Part shown: in pieces, positions 12,001-49,200 of the stretch | Layout of the letters: every line of letters begins with the position of its first letter | Numbering within the stretch: the stretch's first letter is position 1 | Source of the DNA: the human T2T-CHM13v2.0 reference genome, Homo sapiens | Length of the DNA stretch: 64,000 nucleotides | Assembly: GCF_009914755.1 (NCBI RefSeq) | Contig: NC_060940.1 | Strand: one strand, 5' to 3' | The notes under the pieces: generated by a model | The model's database searches: none | The model's input: only the letters and a program-made list of their open reading frames with translations | Told to the model about the DNA's origin: nothing | Position numbers and translations under genes: made by a program

Positions 12001-15000
12001 CTTGGCTTACTGCAACCTCTGCCTCCTGGGCAAGAGATTCTTTTGCCTCAGCCTCCTGAGTAGCTGGGATTACAGGAGTGCGCCACCATGCCCAGCTAAT
12101 TTTTGTATTTTTAGTAGAGATTGGGTTTCACCATGTTGGCCAGTCTGGTCTCGAACTACTGACCTTGTGATCTGCCCGTCTCAGCATCCCAAAGTGCTGG
12201 GATTACAGGCATGAGCCACCATGTCTGGCCGCAAAGTACTCTTAATGACTTTTAAATCATGTTTAACAGAGAGTTTACACAAGTTAGTCCAATGTAGTTA
12301 GTATTAGTGTCCAATAATATATGAACACCCTTCAAGACAATTGCTGCTACATTTTCAATATAATTATTAATTGTTGTCTGAAAAACACACATAAACGCAA
12401 GTGAGACTAAAAGTTGTGTCACAAAAGAAAAAAAGAAAAGACCAGTACCATGCTGTTTTGGTTACTGTAGCCTGGTAGTATGGTTTGAAGTCAGGTAGCG
12501 TGATGCCTCTAGCTTTGTTCTTTTGGCTTAGGATTGACTTGGCAATGCGGGCTCTTTTTTGGTTCCATATGAACTTTAAAGTAGTTTTTTCCAATTCTGT
12601 GAAGAAAGTCATTGGTAGCTTGATGGGGATGGCATTGAATCTATAAATTACCTTGGGCAGTATGGCCATTTTCACAATATTGATTCTTCCTACCCACGAG
12701 CATGGAATGTTCTTCCATTTGTTTGTATCCTCTTTTATTTCATTGAGCAGTGGTTTGTAGTTCTCCTTCAAGAGGTCCTTCACATCCCTTGTAAGTTGGA
12801 TTCCTATATATTTTGTTCTCTTTGAAGCAATTGTGAATGGAAGTGCACTCATGATTTGGCTCTCTGTTTGTCTGTTACTGGTGTGTAAGAATGCTTGTGA
12901 TTTTTGCACATTGATTTTGTATCCTGAGACTTTGCTGAAGTTGCTTATCAGCTTAAGGAGATTTTGGGCTGAGACGATGGGGTTTTCTAGATATACAGTC
13001 ATGTCATCTGCAAACAGGGACAATTTGACTTCCTCTTTTCCTAATCGAATGCCCTTTATTCCCTTCTGCTGCCTGATTGCCCTGGCCAGAACTTCCAACA
13101 CTATGTTGAATAGGAGTGGTGAGAGAGGGCATCCCTGTCTTGTGCCAGTTTTCAAAGGGAATGCTTCCAGTTTTTGTCCATTCAGTATGATATTGGCTGT
13201 GGGTTTGTCATAGATAGCTCTTATTATTTTGAGATATGTCCTATCAGTACCTAATTTATGGAGAGTTTTTAGCATGAAGGGTTGTTGAATTTTGTCAAAG
13301 GCCTTTTCTGCATCTATTGAGATAATCATGCGGTTTTCGTCTTTGGTTCTGTTTATATGCTGGATTACGTTTATTGATTTTCGTATGTTGAACCAGCCTT
13401 GCATCCCAGGGATGAAGCCCACTTGATCATGGTGGATAAGCTTTTTGATGTGTTGCTGGATTCGGTTTGCCAGTATTTTATTGAGGATTTTTGCATAAAT
13501 GTTCATCAAGGATATTGGTCTAAAATTCTCTTTTTTTGTTGTGTGTCTGCCAGGCTTTGGTCTCAGGATGATGCTGGCCTTATAAAATGAGTTAGGGAGG
13601 ATTCCCTCTTTTTCTATTGATTGGAAGAGTTTCAGAAGGAATGGTACCATCTCCTCCTTGTACCTCTGGTAGAATTCGGCTGTGAATCCATCTGGTCCTG
13701 GACTTTTTTTTGGTTGGTAAGCTATTAGTTATTGCCTCAATTTCAGAGTCTGTTATTGGTCTATTCAGAGATTCAGCTTCTTCCTGGTTTAGTCTTGGGA
13801 GAGTGTATGTGTCGAGGAATTTATCCATTTCTTCTAGATTTTCTAGTTTATTTGCGTAGAGGTGTTTGTAGTATCCTCTGATGGTAGTTTGTATTTCTGT
13901 GAGATAGGTGGTGATATCCCCTTTGTCATTTTTGTATTGCATCTATTTGATTCTTCTCTCTTTTCTTCTTTATTAGTCTTGCTAGGGCTCTATCAATTTT
14001 GCTGATCTTTTCAAAAAAACCAGCTCCTGGATTCACTAATTTTTTGAAGGGTTTTTTGTGTCTCTATTTCCTTCAGTTCTGCTCTAATCTTAGTTATTTC
14101 TTGCCTTCTGCTAGCTTTTGAATGTGTTTGCTCTTGCTTCTCTAGTTCTTTTAATTGCGATGTTAGGGTGTCAATTTTAGATCTTTCCTGCTTTCTCTTA
14201 TGGGCATTTAGTGCTATAAATTTCCCTCTACACACTACTTTGAATGTGTCCCAGAGATTTTGGTATGTTGTGTCTTTGTTCTCATTGGTTTCAAAGAACA
14301 TCTTTATTTCTGCCTTCATTTTGTTATGTACCCAGTAGTCCTTCAGGAGCAGGTTGTTCAGTTTCCATGTAGTTGAGCGGTTTTGAGTGAGTTTCTTCAC
14401 CCTGAGTTCTAGTTTGATTGCACTGTGGTCCGAGAGACAGTTTGTTATAATTTCTGTTCTTTTACATTTGCTGAGGAGTGCTTTACTTCCAACTATGTGG
14501 TCAGTTTTGGAATAGGTGTGGTGTGGTGTTGAAAAGAATGTATATTCTGTTGATTTGGGGTGGAGAGTTTTGTAGATGTCTATTAGGTCCGCTTGGTGCA
14601 GAGCTGAGTTCAATTCCTGGATATCCTTGTTAACTTTCTGTCTCGTTGATCTGTCTAATGTTGACAGTGGGGTGTTAAAGTCTCCCATTATTATTGTGTG
14701 GGAGTCTAAGTCTCTTTGTAGGTCACTAAGGACTTGCTTTATGAATCTGGGTGCTCCTGTATTGGGTGCATATATATTTAGGATAGTTAGTTCTTCTTGT
14801 TGAATTGATCCCTTTACCATTATGTAATGGCCTTCTTTGTCTCTTTTGATCTTTGTTGGTTTAAAGACTGTTTTACCCGAGACTAGGATTGCAACCCCTG
14901 CCTTTTTTTGTTTTCCATTTGCTTGGTAGATCTTCCTCCATCCCTTTATTTTGAGCCTATGTGTGTCTCTGCACTTGAGATGGGTTTCCTGAATACAGCA

Positions 15001-46200: not shown

Positions 46201-49200
46201 TTTGAAACCAATGAGAACAAAGACACAACATACCAAAATCTCTGGGACACATTCAAAGTAGTGTGTAGAGGGAAATTTATAGCACTAAATGCCCATAAGA
46301 GAAAGCAGGAAAGATCTAAAATTGACACCCTAACATGGCAATTAAAAGAACTAGAGAAGCAAGGGCAAACACATTCAAAAGCTAGCAGAAGGCAAGAAAT
46401 AACTAAGATTAGAGCAGAACTGAAGGAAATAGAGACACAAAAAACCCTTCAAAAAATTAATGAATCCAGGAGCTGGTTTTTTTGAAAAGATCAACAAAAT
46501 TGATAGAGCCCTAGCAAGACTAATAAAGAAGAAAAGAGAGAAGAATCAAATAGATGCAATACAAAAATGACAAAGGGGATATCACCACCAATCCCACAGA
46601 AATACAAACTACCATCAGAGAATACTATAAACACCTCTACGCAAATAAACTAGAAAATCTAGAAGAAGTGGATAAATTCCTCGACACATACACTCTCCCA
46701 AGACTAAACCAGGAAGAAGTTGAATCTCTGAATAGACCAATAACAGGCTCTGAAATTGAGGCGATAATTAATAGCTTACCAACCAAAAAAAGTCCAGGAC
46801 CAGATGGATTCACAGCCGAATTCTACCAGAGGTACAAGGAGGAGATGGTACCATTCCTTCTGAAACTCTTCCAATCAATAGAAAAAGAGGGAATCCTCCC
46901 TAACTCATTTTATCAGGCCAGCATCATCCTGAGACCAAAGCCTGGAAGAGACACAACAAAAAAAGAGAATTTTAGACCAATATCCTTGATGAACATTGAT
47001 GCAAAAATCCTCAATAAAATACTGGCAAACCGAATCCAGCAACACATCAAAAAGCTTATCCACCATGATCAAGTGGGCTTCATCCCTGGGATGCAAGGCT
47101 GGTTCAACATACGAAAATCAATAAACGTAATCCAGCATATAAACAGAACCAAAGACAAAAACCACATGATTGTCTCAATAGATGCAGAAAAGGCCTTTGA
47201 CAAAATTCAACAACCCTTCATGCTAAAAACTCTCCATAAATTAGGTACTGATAGGACATATCTCAAAATAATAAGAGCTATCTATGACAAACCCACAGCC
47301 AATATCATACTGAATGGACAAAAACTGGAAGCATTCCCTTTGAAAACTGGCACAAGACAGGAATGCCCTCTCTCACCACTCCTATTCAACATAGTGTTGG
47401 AAGTTCTGGCCAGGGCAATCAGGCAGCAGAAGGGAATAAAGGGCATTCGATTAGGAAAAGAGGAAGTCAAATTGTCCCTGTTTGCAGATGACATGATTGT
47501 ATATCTAGAAAACCCCATCGTCTCAGCCCAAAATGTCCTTAAGCTGATAAGCAACTTCAGCAAAGTCTCAGCATACAAAATCAATGTGCAAAAATCACAA
47601 GCATTCTTATACACCAATAACAGACAAACAGAGAGCCAAATCATGAGTGAACTCCCATTTACAATTGCTTCAAAGAGAATAAAATACCTAGGAATCCAAC
47701 TTACAAAGGATGTGAAGGACCTCTTGAAGGAGAACTACAAACCACTGCTCAATGAAATAAAAGAGGATACAAACAAATGGAAGAACATTCCATGCTCATG
47801 GGTAGGAAGAATCAATATCATGAAAATGGCCATACTGGCCAAGGTAATTTATAGATTCAATGCCATCCCCATCAAGCTACCAATGACTTTCTTCACAGAA
47901 TTGGAAAAAACTACTTTAAAGTTCATATGGAACCAAAAAAGAGCCCACATTGCCAAGTCAATCCTAAGCCAAAAGAACAAAGCTAGAGGCATCACGCTAC
48001 CCGACTTCAAACTATACCACCAGGCTACAGTAACCAAAACAGCATGGTACTGGTACCAAAACAGAAATATAGACCAATGGAACAGAACAGAGCCCTCAGA
48101 AGTAATGCCGCATATCTACAACTATCTGATCTTTGACAAACCTGACAAAAACAAGCAATGGGGAAAGGATTCCCTATTTAATAAATGGTGCTGGGAAAAC
48201 TGGCTAGCCACATGTAGAAAGCTGAAACTGGATCCCTTCCTTACACCTTATACAAAAATTAATTCAAGATAGTTTAAAGACTTACATGTTAGTCCTAAAA
48301 CCATAAAAACCCTAGAAGAAAACCTAGGCAATACCATTCAGGACACAGGCATGGGCAAGGACTTCAAGTCTAAAACACCAAAAGCAATGGCAACAAAAGC
48401 CAAAATTGACAAATGGGATCTAATTAAACTAAGAAGATTCTGCACAGCAAAAGAAACCACCATCAGAGTGAACAGGCAACCTACTGAATGGGAGAAAATT
48501 TTTGCAAGCTACTCATCTGACAAAGGGCTAATATCCAGAATCTACAATGAACTCAAACAAATTTACAAGAAAAAAAGAAACAACTCCATCAAAAAGTGGG
48601 CGAAGGATATGAACAGACACTTCTCAAAAGAAGACATTTATGCAGCCAAAAGACACACGAAAAAATGCTCATCATCACTGGCCATCAGACAAATGCAAAT
48701 CAAAACCACAATGAGATACCATCTCACACCAGTTAGAATGGCGATCCTTAAAAAGTCAGGAAACAACAGGTGCTGGAGAGGATGTGGAGAAATAGGAACA
48801 CTTTTACATTGTTGGTGGGACTGTAAACTAGTTCAACCATTGTGGAAGTCGGTATGGTGATTCCTCAGGGATCTAGAACTAGAAATACCGTTTGACCCAG
48901 CCATGCCATTACTGGGTATATATCCAAAGGATTATAAATCATGCTGCTATAAAGACCCATGCACACGTATGTTTATTGCGGCACTATTCACAATAGCAAA
49001 GACTAGGAACCAACCCAAATGTCCAACAATGATAGACTGGATTAAGAAAATGTGGCACATATACACCACGGAATACTATGCAGCCATAAAAAATGATGAG
49101 TTCATGTCCTTTGTAGGGACATGGATGAAGCTGGAAACCATCATTCTCAGCAAACTATCGCAAGGACAAAAAACCAAATACCGCATGTTCTCACTCATAG

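What the first reader, a model, noticed from the sequence alone, without database searches (positions are those of the whole stretch)
14160..46336. Two independent L1s flanking ITGAM exons 15-30 are homogenised only where they are inverted (~840 bp perfect tract)
Seen: reading base by base, 14160-15000 is the exact reverse complement of 45496-46336 (841 bp, no mismatch found). Both copies share two +1 frameshifts (TGG-T7-GAA and GCAATACAAAAATGAC) and many residues that differ from my recollection of the L1PA ORF2p consensus ([62 protein letters not shown]). Their directly oriented 3' parts differ at 10 of 240 bp in a sample (16381-16620 vs ~48091-48330) and at ~15 of 169 aa. Each L1 has its own flanks, so this is not a segmental duplication. 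Established: L1 proteins act in cis, so an active parent cannot hand on ORF2 frameshifts. Inference: repeated and recent non-allelic gene conversion between inverted arms ~31 kb apart, which implies the ITGAM 3' half loops out and pairs in the germline.
Basis: partly seen in the sequence, partly recalled or inferred. Interest (0 to 1): 0.82.

Follow-up and report, generated by a model that had tools for sequence, protein, structure and literature searches.

The report
Gene conversion between two ITGAM L1s
Two old, independently inserted LINE-1 copies that sit head-to-head around the last 16 exons of ITGAM have copied about 2 kb of sequence from one to the other at least twice, which is a clean but ordinary example of gene conversion between nearby inverted repeats.

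Summary
Window 14160-15000 is the exact reverse complement of 45496-46336: 841 bp, 0 mismatches, bounded by a mismatch on each side. In 20000 permutations no identical run reached that length (largest 762).

The two L1s are independent insertions, each with its own target-site duplication. The left one is a single twin-primed element: 3.9 kb of its 5' part is inverted and 1.36 kb of its 3' part is direct.

Next to the perfect tract lies an older exchanged zone, right 46337-47500. It has 22 differences and 13 shared variants absent from all 19 other L1 copies compared.

The direct 3' parts are unremarkable. At least 39 and 16 other genomic copies score closer there.

Best reading: repeated non-allelic gene conversion, once roughly mid-way through the elements' residence and once very recently.

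The converted part is only about 2.0 of the 3.9 kb inverted arms, so orientation as the cause is not shown. "The ITGAM 3' half loops out" remains inference.

This is a known kind of event. Its main interest is that the pair is a possible substrate for an inversion that would break ITGAM.

The parts
12441..16354 (-). Left L1, inverted 5' segment (end of 5'UTR, ORF1, ORF2 endonuclease and reverse-transcriptase regions). It corresponds to right L1 48054 down to 44184.
   Evidence: blastn (98.1% and 96.2%). Pfam Exo_endo_phos and RVT_1 on the minus strand. Junction sequences.
16355..17719 (+). Left L1, direct 3' segment (ORF2 3' end, 3'UTR, A-rich tail). It corresponds to right L1 48065-49425. Nine L1 bases (right 48055-48063) are missing at the inversion junction.
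   Evidence: blastn (95.1%, 67 mismatches in 1377)..
12430..12440 (.). Left L1 target-site duplication, 5' copy (AAAAAGAAAAG). The 3' copy is at 17720-17730.
   Evidence: Read. The sequence is A-rich, so its exact length is uncertain.
43258..49435 (+). Right L1, full length (about 6.18 kb), starting at the canonical 5' end and ending in an A-rich tail. ORF1 and ORF2 are broken.
   Evidence: Pfam Transposase_22, Tnp_22_dsRBD, Tnp_22_trimer, Exo_endo_phos and RVT_1. Frames.
43240..43257 (.). Right L1 target-site duplication, 5' copy (GAAAAATTGGAGGCCAGT, 18 bp). An identical 3' copy is at 49436-49453.
45496..46336 (+). Perfect tract, right copy (ORF2 endonuclease region): the recent conversion.
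   Evidence: 0 of 841 mismatches. 9 shared variants absent from 19 of 19 panel copies. The best other genomic copy is 97.4% identical.
14160..15000 (-). Perfect tract, left copy.
46337..47500 (+). Older exchanged zone, right copy (left counterpart 12995-14159, minus strand). It has 22 differences and 13 shared variants absent from all 19 panel copies (15 if one panel carrier is allowed).
   Evidence: Fisher p=3e-5 against the direct part. Sister grouping with support 1.0.
46474..46486 (+). Shared 1-bp insertion in a T run (T7 here, T6 in 19 of 19 panel copies). The left counterpart is 14010-14022.
46556..46571 (+). Shared 1-bp C insertion. The left counterpart is 13925-13940.
   Evidence: 5 exact hits in the genome, of which the 3 outside this pair are non-homologous.
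44184..45495 (+). Inverted arm, 5' flank of the converted zone (left counterpart 15001-16354). 44 substitutions in 1309 bp. The signal of exchange is weak and not significant.
47501..48054 (+). Inverted arm next to the inversion junction (left counterpart 12441-12994). 19 differences in 554 bp. No clear homogenisation.
   Evidence: 16 genomic copies score above the left copy..
48065..49425 (+). Direct-oriented part of the homology (left counterpart 16355-17715). About 4.9% different, with no excess similarity.
26662..38298 (+). ITGAM exons 15-30, lying in the 27.8 kb spacer between the inverted arms.
   Evidence: Gene table supplied with the finding. Not tested here.

Best explanation
Two L1PA-type LINE-1 copies inserted independently, one in ITGAM intron 14 and one 5 kb downstream of the gene. 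The intronic copy was made by twin priming, so its 5' 3.9 kb lies inverted relative to the downstream copy.

A DNA break in one copy was later repaired by homologous recombination using the other copy as template, without crossover. This is non-allelic (interlocus) gene conversion, and it happened at least twice within right coordinates 45496-47500:
- An older event or events moved one copy's accumulated private mutations, including two 1-bp insertions in ORF2, into the other copy.
- A recent event re-homogenised 841 bp, which have not diverged since.

Earlier homogenisation probably favoured the later event by providing long perfect matches.

Shown: independent origin, the identity pattern, and the pair-private shared variants.
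Inferred: the repair pathway, the timing, that it happened in the germline, and which copy was the donor (unknown).
For: Independent origin:
- The two elements have different target-site duplications and different 5' ends.
- The left element's two segments are contiguous in L1 coordinates apart from 9 missing bases, and are flanked by one duplication.

Perfect tract:
- 0 of 841 differences, while flanking inverted sequence differs at 2.8% (86 substitutions in 3029 bp outside the tract).
- 0 of 20000 permutations reach a run of 841.
- The five longest identical runs all lie in 45496-47500.

Shared variants absent from 19 of 19 other copies, per kb: 10.7 in the tract, 11.2 in 46337-47500, 2.2 in the direct part.

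Shared-private variants versus differences: 13:22 in the older zone against 3:66 in the direct part, p=3e-5.

The C-insertion 16-mer and a 66-mer holding two tract variants are exact only in this pair.

Trees: the pair are sisters with support 1.0 in 45496-47500. In the direct part they are not sisters; the partner ranks 7th and 10th of 20.

Each copy's total load of rare variants matches the 19 panel copies, for example 22.8 and 19.8 against a median of 20.0 per kb in the direct part. Both are therefore old elements, not a recent duplication.

Literature:
- Gene conversion between dispersed repeats is documented (PMC6598467, first two of four parts read; PMC8230782, passages).
- Recombination between inverted L1 pairs is documented (PMC9675761, PMC3961182, PMC2603318, passages).
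Against: - Only one assembly was available. No orthologues or other haplotypes could be compared, so timing and fixation are untested.
- Sub-zone 46337-46768 has a difference density (13 of 432) like the unconverted flanks, yet it holds 6 pair-private shared variants interleaved with those differences. A single older event does not explain this neatly.
- The panel of 19 was chosen by similarity to the tract.
- The genome search scores only 40 of thousands of candidates, and it failed to list the left copy itself. 'No closer copy elsewhere' is therefore not exhaustive.
- Conversion cannot be told apart from a replicative template switch on sequence alone.
Confidence: 0.85

Rival explanations
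1. Orientation is the cause. The inverted arms fold back on one chromatid as a stem-loop that loops out ITGAM exons 15-30, as in palindrome arm-to-arm conversion. On this view only inverted sequence is homogenised.
For: - Both converted layers lie in the inverted part.
- The pair group as sisters in all three inverted zones tested (support 0.979, 1.0, 0.918) but not in the direct part.
- Share of the left copy's rare variants also carried by the right copy: 7 of 21 and 3 of 12 in the inverted flanks, against 3 of 31 in the direct part (counts).
Against: - About 1.9 kb of the inverted arms shows no significant excess (Fisher p=0.44 and 0.15).
- In 47501-48054, 16 genomic copies score closer to the right copy than the left copy does.
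- The direct block is only 1.36 kb at about 95% identity and cannot pair while the longer inverted block pairs. Length alone predicts the pattern.
- This is a single locus.
Confidence: 0.2
2. Assembly or polishing artefact: reads from one L1 were used to correct the other, producing a false perfect tract.
For: Only one assembly was seen. Perfect identity inside a repeat is the classic form of such an error.
Against: - The adjacent zone 46337-47500 holds 13 pair-private shared variants interleaved with 22 real differences. A collapse would not produce that pattern, and it shows independently that these two copies exchanged sequence.
- The tract is 841 bp inside arms that differ on both sides. 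From general knowledge, this is well within single long reads.
Confidence: 0.03
3. Common inheritance: both copies descend from one already mutated source element, mobilised in trans, so the shared variants predate insertion.
For: The two copies share the same nearest panel relatives (L037, L049, L039) along the whole length, so they belong to one sub-lineage.
Against: - The shared-private variants are concentrated in 2 kb and are at background level in the direct part.
- Zero differences in 841 bp is incompatible with copies that each carry about 20 private changes per kb elsewhere.
- No other genomic copy examined carries the variants.
- Two ORF2 frameshifts would cripple a source. This rests on cis preference, which is established knowledge and was not tested here.
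Confidence: 0.02
4. The copying was non-recombinational: a replication template switch between the inverted arms, or repair templated by L1 RNA or cDNA from the full-length right copy.
For: The left copy carries a private 42-bp inverted duplication (15440-15481) of the kind produced by template switching. The right copy is full length with its 5'UTR.
Against: No junction scars, insertions or microhomology-type breakpoints occur at the tract edges. The edges are single mismatches in continuous homology. There is no direct evidence for either route.
Confidence: 0.08

Closest known systems
Non-allelic gene conversion between neighbouring transposable-element copies (Alu-Alu, LTR-LTR). Reviewed in PMC6598467 (first two of four parts read) and PMC8230782 (passages read).
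   Same: Independent insertions of one family. Mosaic identity. Private mutations passed from one copy to another. The two copies are close together on one chromosome.
   Different: - The elements here are L1s with 3.9 kb of homology, 28-31 kb apart. The Alu signal quoted in those papers is mainly within about 10 kb.
- The tract is long, 841 bp within a 2 kb zone.
- Two layers of different age can be seen at one locus.
Inversions made by recombination between inverted L1 pairs. Examples: HsInv0341, an L1PA3 pair of 6.2 kb around a 20.8 kb inversion (PMC3961182, Table 1 passage); 8 L1-mediated inversions with median L1 similarity 97.1% (PMC9675761, passages); human-chimpanzee inversions (PMC2603318, passages).
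   Same: Inverted L1PA arms a few kb long and 96-100% identical, tens of kb apart. The recombination machinery is presumed to be the same.
   Different: Here the outcome is the non-crossover product. The spacer is in the reference orientation and ITGAM is annotated intact. No inversion allele is known from the searches made.
Factor VIII int22h repeats and Y-chromosome palindromes.
   Same: An intronic repeat with an inverted copy outside the gene, homogenised by conversion. A crossover would invert part of the gene.
   Different: Those arms arose by duplication and are nearly identical along their whole length. Here the arms are independent retrotransposon insertions and only about half of the arm is homogenised.
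Twin-primed (5'-inverted) L1 insertions. Ostertag and Kazazian 2001 was seen only as a reference-list entry in PMC1920257. The abstract of PMC2837659 was seen in a search listing.
   Same: An inverted 5' segment and a direct 3' segment. They are contiguous in L1 coordinates with a small loss (9 bp). One target-site duplication flanks the whole, with an A-rich tail.
   Different: Nothing unusual, apart from the long (3.9 kb) inverted segment.

Membership tests
LINE-1 (L1PA-type) retrotransposon insertion | ORF1 RNA-binding domains, and an ORF2 endonuclease plus reverse transcriptase | tested here: met
   Pfam hits: Transposase_22 (2.6e-61), Tnp_22_dsRBD and Tnp_22_trimer in the right copy. Exo_endo_phos and RVT_1 in both copies.
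LINE-1 (L1PA-type) retrotransposon insertion | A-rich 3' tail and flanking target-site duplication | tested here: met
   Right: an identical 18-bp duplication. Left: 11 bp, A-rich.
LINE-1 (L1PA-type) retrotransposon insertion | Assignment to subfamily L1PA3 or L1PA4 | not testable with these tools
   No repeat-family library was on hand. There is only an age proxy: about 20 rare variants per kb per copy, like the 19 panel copies.
Twin-priming 5' inversion | Inverted and direct segments adjoin in L1 coordinates with a small deletion or duplication, inside a single target-site duplication | tested here: met
   The inverted segment ends at right-equivalent 48054 and the direct segment starts at 48064/48065. 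One duplication flanks 12441-17719.
Interlocus (non-allelic) gene conversion | The paralogues have independent origins, so they are not a duplication | tested here: met
   Different duplications, different 5' ends, different flanks.
Interlocus (non-allelic) gene conversion | An identical tract significantly longer than background divergence allows | tested here: met
   841 bp. 0 of 20000 permutations reach it. P about 6e-8 under uniform placement.
Interlocus (non-allelic) gene conversion | Derived variants private to the pair, confined to the tract or tracts | tested here: met
   22 variants absent from 19 of 19 panel copies in 2005 bp, against 3 in 1361 bp of the direct part. Genome-wide checks.
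Interlocus (non-allelic) gene conversion | Paralogues closer to each other than to their orthologues in other species | not testable with these tools
   Only the human assembly is held.
Palindrome-type arm-to-arm concerted evolution | Near-identity along the whole of both arms | tested here: not met
   The flanks of the arms differ at 3.4% (44 of 1309 and 19 of 554).

The most novel reading that the evidence does not exclude
The inverted L1 pair is a currently active recombination substrate. Fold-back pairing across the 28 kb spacer keeps re-homogenising the arms. The crossover outcome, a 28-31 kb inversion that separates ITGAM exons 1-14 from exons 15-30, would then arise recurrently and exist as a rare null allele of this lupus-associated gene in human populations.
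Probability: 0.1. Interest if true: 0.55.

Novelty: new member of a known kind. Interest (0 to 1): 0.3.

Why it matters
- It is a well-resolved case of conversion between dispersed repeats. Insertion history (twin priming, separate duplications), an internal unconverted control and two conversion layers can all be read from one sequence.
- Conversion distorts repeat age estimates. Within the tract the pair looks 0% diverged, although each copy carries about 20 private changes per kb elsewhere.
- In practical terms, 841 bp of perfect identity and 2 kb of about 99% identity in inverted orientation around ITGAM exons 15-30 is the kind of substrate known to produce inversions. Long-read cohorts could be screened for an ITGAM-disrupting inversion.
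- It does not reveal a new mechanism.

Tried and rejected
- Whole-arm homogenisation: rejected. The 5' 1.3 kb and the 554 bp next to the junction are not significantly different from the direct part in shared-private variants. In 47501-48054, 16 genomic copies score above the left copy.
- Segmental duplication: rejected on flanks and target-site duplications.
- Reciprocal double crossover, or inversion followed by re-inversion: rejected as the sole cause. It would swap segments, not make them identical (reasoning, not a computation).
- Frameshifts as a subfamily trait: rejected. 0 of 19 panel copies carry them, and the 3 extra genome hits of the 16-mer are unrelated sequence.
- Donor direction: I considered inferring it from the panel and found no usable signal. 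It was not computed.
- GC-biased transmission: among the 9 tract variants, 4 are weak-to-strong and 4 strong-to-weak (read). No bias is seen.
Uninformative.
- A larger panel of 20 copies chosen by 3' similarity could not be fetched.
- Literature searches for this locus found nothing relevant.
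Full report
**1. The observation**

Window 14160-15000 is the exact reverse complement of 45496-46336: 841 bases, no mismatch. A base-by-base alignment of the two elements puts a mismatch directly on either side, at right 45495 / left 15001 and right 46337 / left 14159.

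I placed the 86 substitutions of the inverted part at random over its 3870 aligned sites. The mean longest identical run was 222 and the largest was 762. None of 20000 trials reached 841. Even at the lowest neighbouring difference rate (9 in 732), the chance of 841 clean bases is about 3e-5.

**2. Anatomy**

The right element:
- It is a full-length L1 at 43258-49435.
- It has a canonical 5' start and an A-rich tail.
- It is flanked by an identical 18-bp target-site duplication at 43240-43257 and 49436-49453.

The left element:
- It runs from 12441 to 17719, between an 11-bp A-rich duplication at 12430-12440 and 17720-17730.
- Its first 3.9 kb (12441-16354) matches the right element in reverse, right 48054 back to 44184.
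- Its last 1.36 kb (16355-17719) matches in direct orientation from right 48064/48065.
- The two segments adjoin in L1 coordinates except for nine missing bases.
- This is the standard signature of one retrotransposition event with a twin-priming 5' inversion, not two insertions.
- The left element is truncated about 0.93 kb into the L1, whereas the right one is complete.

Pfam finds ORF1 domains, endonuclease and reverse transcriptase as expected. Both elements have broken frames.

By the gene table supplied with the finding, the left element lies in ITGAM intron 14 and the right one 5 kb past the last exon. Exons 15-30 sit in the 27.8 kb between the inverted arms.

**3. How similarity varies along the elements**

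Substitutions between the two copies, by right coordinates:

| Zone | Orientation | Differences |
|---|---|---|
| 44187-45495 | inverted | 44 in 1309 (3.4%) |
| 45496-46336 | inverted | 0 in 841 |
| 46337-46768 | inverted | 13 in 432 (3.0%) |
| 46769-47500 | inverted | 9 in 732 (1.2%) |
| 47501-48054 | inverted | 19 in 554 (3.4%) |
| 48065-49425 | direct | 66 in 1361 (4.9%) |

Identity is therefore not uniform. It is also not uniformly high across the inverted part.

**4. A panel of other copies**

The window's own assembly could be searched. I took the best 20 other matches to the tract at full length. One of them (L038) is itself rearranged and was dropped. That left 19 copies, which I aligned with the two elements.

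I classified each column by the commonest state among the 19.

Variants shared by the two ITGAM copies and absent from all 19:

| Zone | Shared-private variants | Length (bp) |
|---|---|---|
| 44187-45495 | 4 | 1309 |
| tract 45496-46336 | 9 | 841 |
| 46337-47500 | 13 | 1164 |
| 47501-48054 | 3 | 554 |
| direct part | 3 | 1361 |

Ratio of shared-private variants to differences:
- 9:0 in the tract.
- 13:22 in 46337-47500.
- 3:66 in the direct part. Fisher p is 1.2e-9 for the tract and 3.1e-5 for 46337-47500 against this.
- The two outer inverted zones do not differ from the direct part (p=0.44 and 0.15).

- They lie at 46474-46486 and 46556-46571.
- Both are outside the perfect tract, and neither is carried by any of the 19 panel copies.
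- The 16-mer that holds the C insertion occurs five times in the 3.1 Gb genome. The three hits outside this pair are unrelated sequence.
- A 66-base stretch holding two of the tract's variants is exact only in the pair (40 of 373 candidates scored).

**5. Who is closest to whom**

- In the tract the best other genomic copy is 97.4% identical (40 of 4835 candidates scored).
- In 46337-47500 the best others are 96%, against 98.1% for the partner (with the count).
- In the direct part, all 39 other listed copies score above what the left copy scores against the right one.
- Also in the direct part, the right copy comes after 16 others when the left copy is the query.
- In the inverted 554 bp next to the junction, the left copy is again only one of many: 16 copies score higher.
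- In 44187-45495 the left copy was not listed, because it carries a 42-bp insertion. By substitutions it is slightly closer than the best listed copy (44 against roughly 55 mismatch-equivalents by my own arithmetic bit scores). I treat this as inconclusive.

Zone-wise trees give the pair as sisters in 45496-47500 (support 1.0). They are also sisters, less strongly, in the two outer inverted zones (0.979 and 0.918). In the direct part they are not; the partner ranks 7th and 10th of 20.

One caution on the search tool. It scores only 40 candidates, and it did not list the left copy although that copy is 98% identical. Statements of the form 'nothing closer exists' are therefore not exhaustive.

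**6. Age**

Each copy's load of rare variants, own plus shared, is like that of the panel copies in every zone. In the direct part it is 22.8 and 19.8 per kb, against a panel median of 20.0. Both are therefore old elements of similar age.

Taking about 20 per kb as the load built up over the residence time T:
- Zero differences in 841 bp puts the recent event within roughly the last 9% of T (95% bound; my arithmetic).
- For the older zone, 22 differences in 1164 bp, together with the share of rare variants that is common to both copies (15 of 25 and 15 of 20), put the event or events somewhere between a quarter and two-thirds of T ago.

Converting to years needs a subfamily age that I could not test. 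With the recalled 18-25 million years for L1PA4-like elements, the recent event would be younger than about 2 million years.

Differences are marginally denser in 46337-46768 than in 46769-47500. The older layer may therefore itself be composite.

**7. Mechanism**

A non-reciprocal transfer is required, because a reciprocal exchange (double crossover, or inversion and re-inversion) would swap segments rather than make them identical. The simplest reading is break repair by homologous recombination with the other L1 as template and no crossover.

Several things are inferred and not shown:
- That it happened in the germline (it is in the assembly of a germline-derived genome).
- Which copy was the donor.
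- Whether the template was on the same chromatid, the sister chromatid or the homologue.

**8. Does orientation matter?**

Both layers lie in the inverted block and none in the direct block. The weak sister signal in the outer inverted zones points the same way.

Against this:
- About 1.9 of the 3.9 kb inverted arm shows no significant homogenisation.
- The direct block is short (1.36 kb), about 95% identical, and cannot pair while the longer block pairs in the opposite sense.
- A 2 kb zone could not have fitted into the direct block.
- An 841-bp tract placed at random along the homology would fall in the inverted block about 85% of the time (my arithmetic lengths).

One locus cannot separate orientation from length.

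**9. What is known**

Gene conversion between dispersed repeat copies is established for Alu and LTR elements. It falls off with distance and divergence (PMC6598467, first two of four parts read; PMC8230782, passages).

For LINEs:
- PMC1920257 (passages) refers to cell-culture repair of breaks by L1-mediated gene conversion and proposes an intra-chromosomal conversion at one L1 locus.
- The primary paper (Tremblay et al. 2000) I saw only as a reference-list entry.

Inverted L1 pairs are known to recombine:
- 8 L1-mediated inversions in three genomes, with median L1 similarity 97.1% (PMC9675761, passages).
- A polymorphic 20.8 kb inversion between inverted 6.2 kb L1PA3 copies (PMC3961182, Table 1 passage).
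- Human-chimpanzee inversions attributed to L1PA pairs (PMC2603318, passages).

The same paper (PMC3961182) notes that mammalian conversion tracts are usually a few hundred bases and rarely over 1 kb. The 841-bp tract is therefore at the long end.

Searches for this locus found nothing relevant: 'ITGAM' with 'LINE-1' and 'gene conversion', and 'ITGAM' with 'inversion' and 'L1PA'. Supplementary tables of the inversion papers were not opened and could list this pair.

**10. Verdict**

The core of the interpretation, repeated and partly recent non-allelic gene conversion between two independent L1s, is well supported. The orientation-specific and looping claims are not established.

This is a new instance of a known process. 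The most useful consequence is the prediction that this pair could generate an inversion that breaks ITGAM.

Noticed in passing
window 15435-15534 (insertion 15440-15481): The left L1 carries a private 42-bp insertion that is an inverted copy of the adjacent ORF1 sequence. It gives a 44-nt hairpin (95% complementary, 12-nt loop). It is absent from the right L1 and from 19 of 19 panel copies, and looks like a local template-switch mutation.
   Followed up: partly
window 18829-20108: A third, older L1 3' fragment lies on the minus strand just downstream of the left L1. It is 87-88% identical to the 3' parts of both L1s (pairs I3 and I4). It shows no sign of exchange with them at that level.
   Followed up: no
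L038 (G000:C4:147206373-147213149): One of the 20 panel loci is itself a 5'-inverted L1. Its match to the right L1 switches strand at L1 position about 3580. It was dropped from the panel.
   Followed up: no
window 29424-29700, 33685-34450, 36082-36429: There are dense short-period direct repeat arrays inside ITGAM introns (families D2, D1 and D4).
   Followed up: no
window 49454 onward: The right L1 inserted into the first bases of an Alu. Its target-site duplication ends in GGCCAGT, and Alu-like sequence continues after the 3' copy.
   Followed up: no
Two are the G-rich stretch of the L1 3'UTRs (17562, 49272). None is in the converted zone.
   Followed up: no
The genome search: The genome search did not list the left L1 (98% identical, same contig) among its 40 scored candidates for query 46337-47500. 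Its top lists are therefore not true top lists for abundant repeats.
   Followed up: partly
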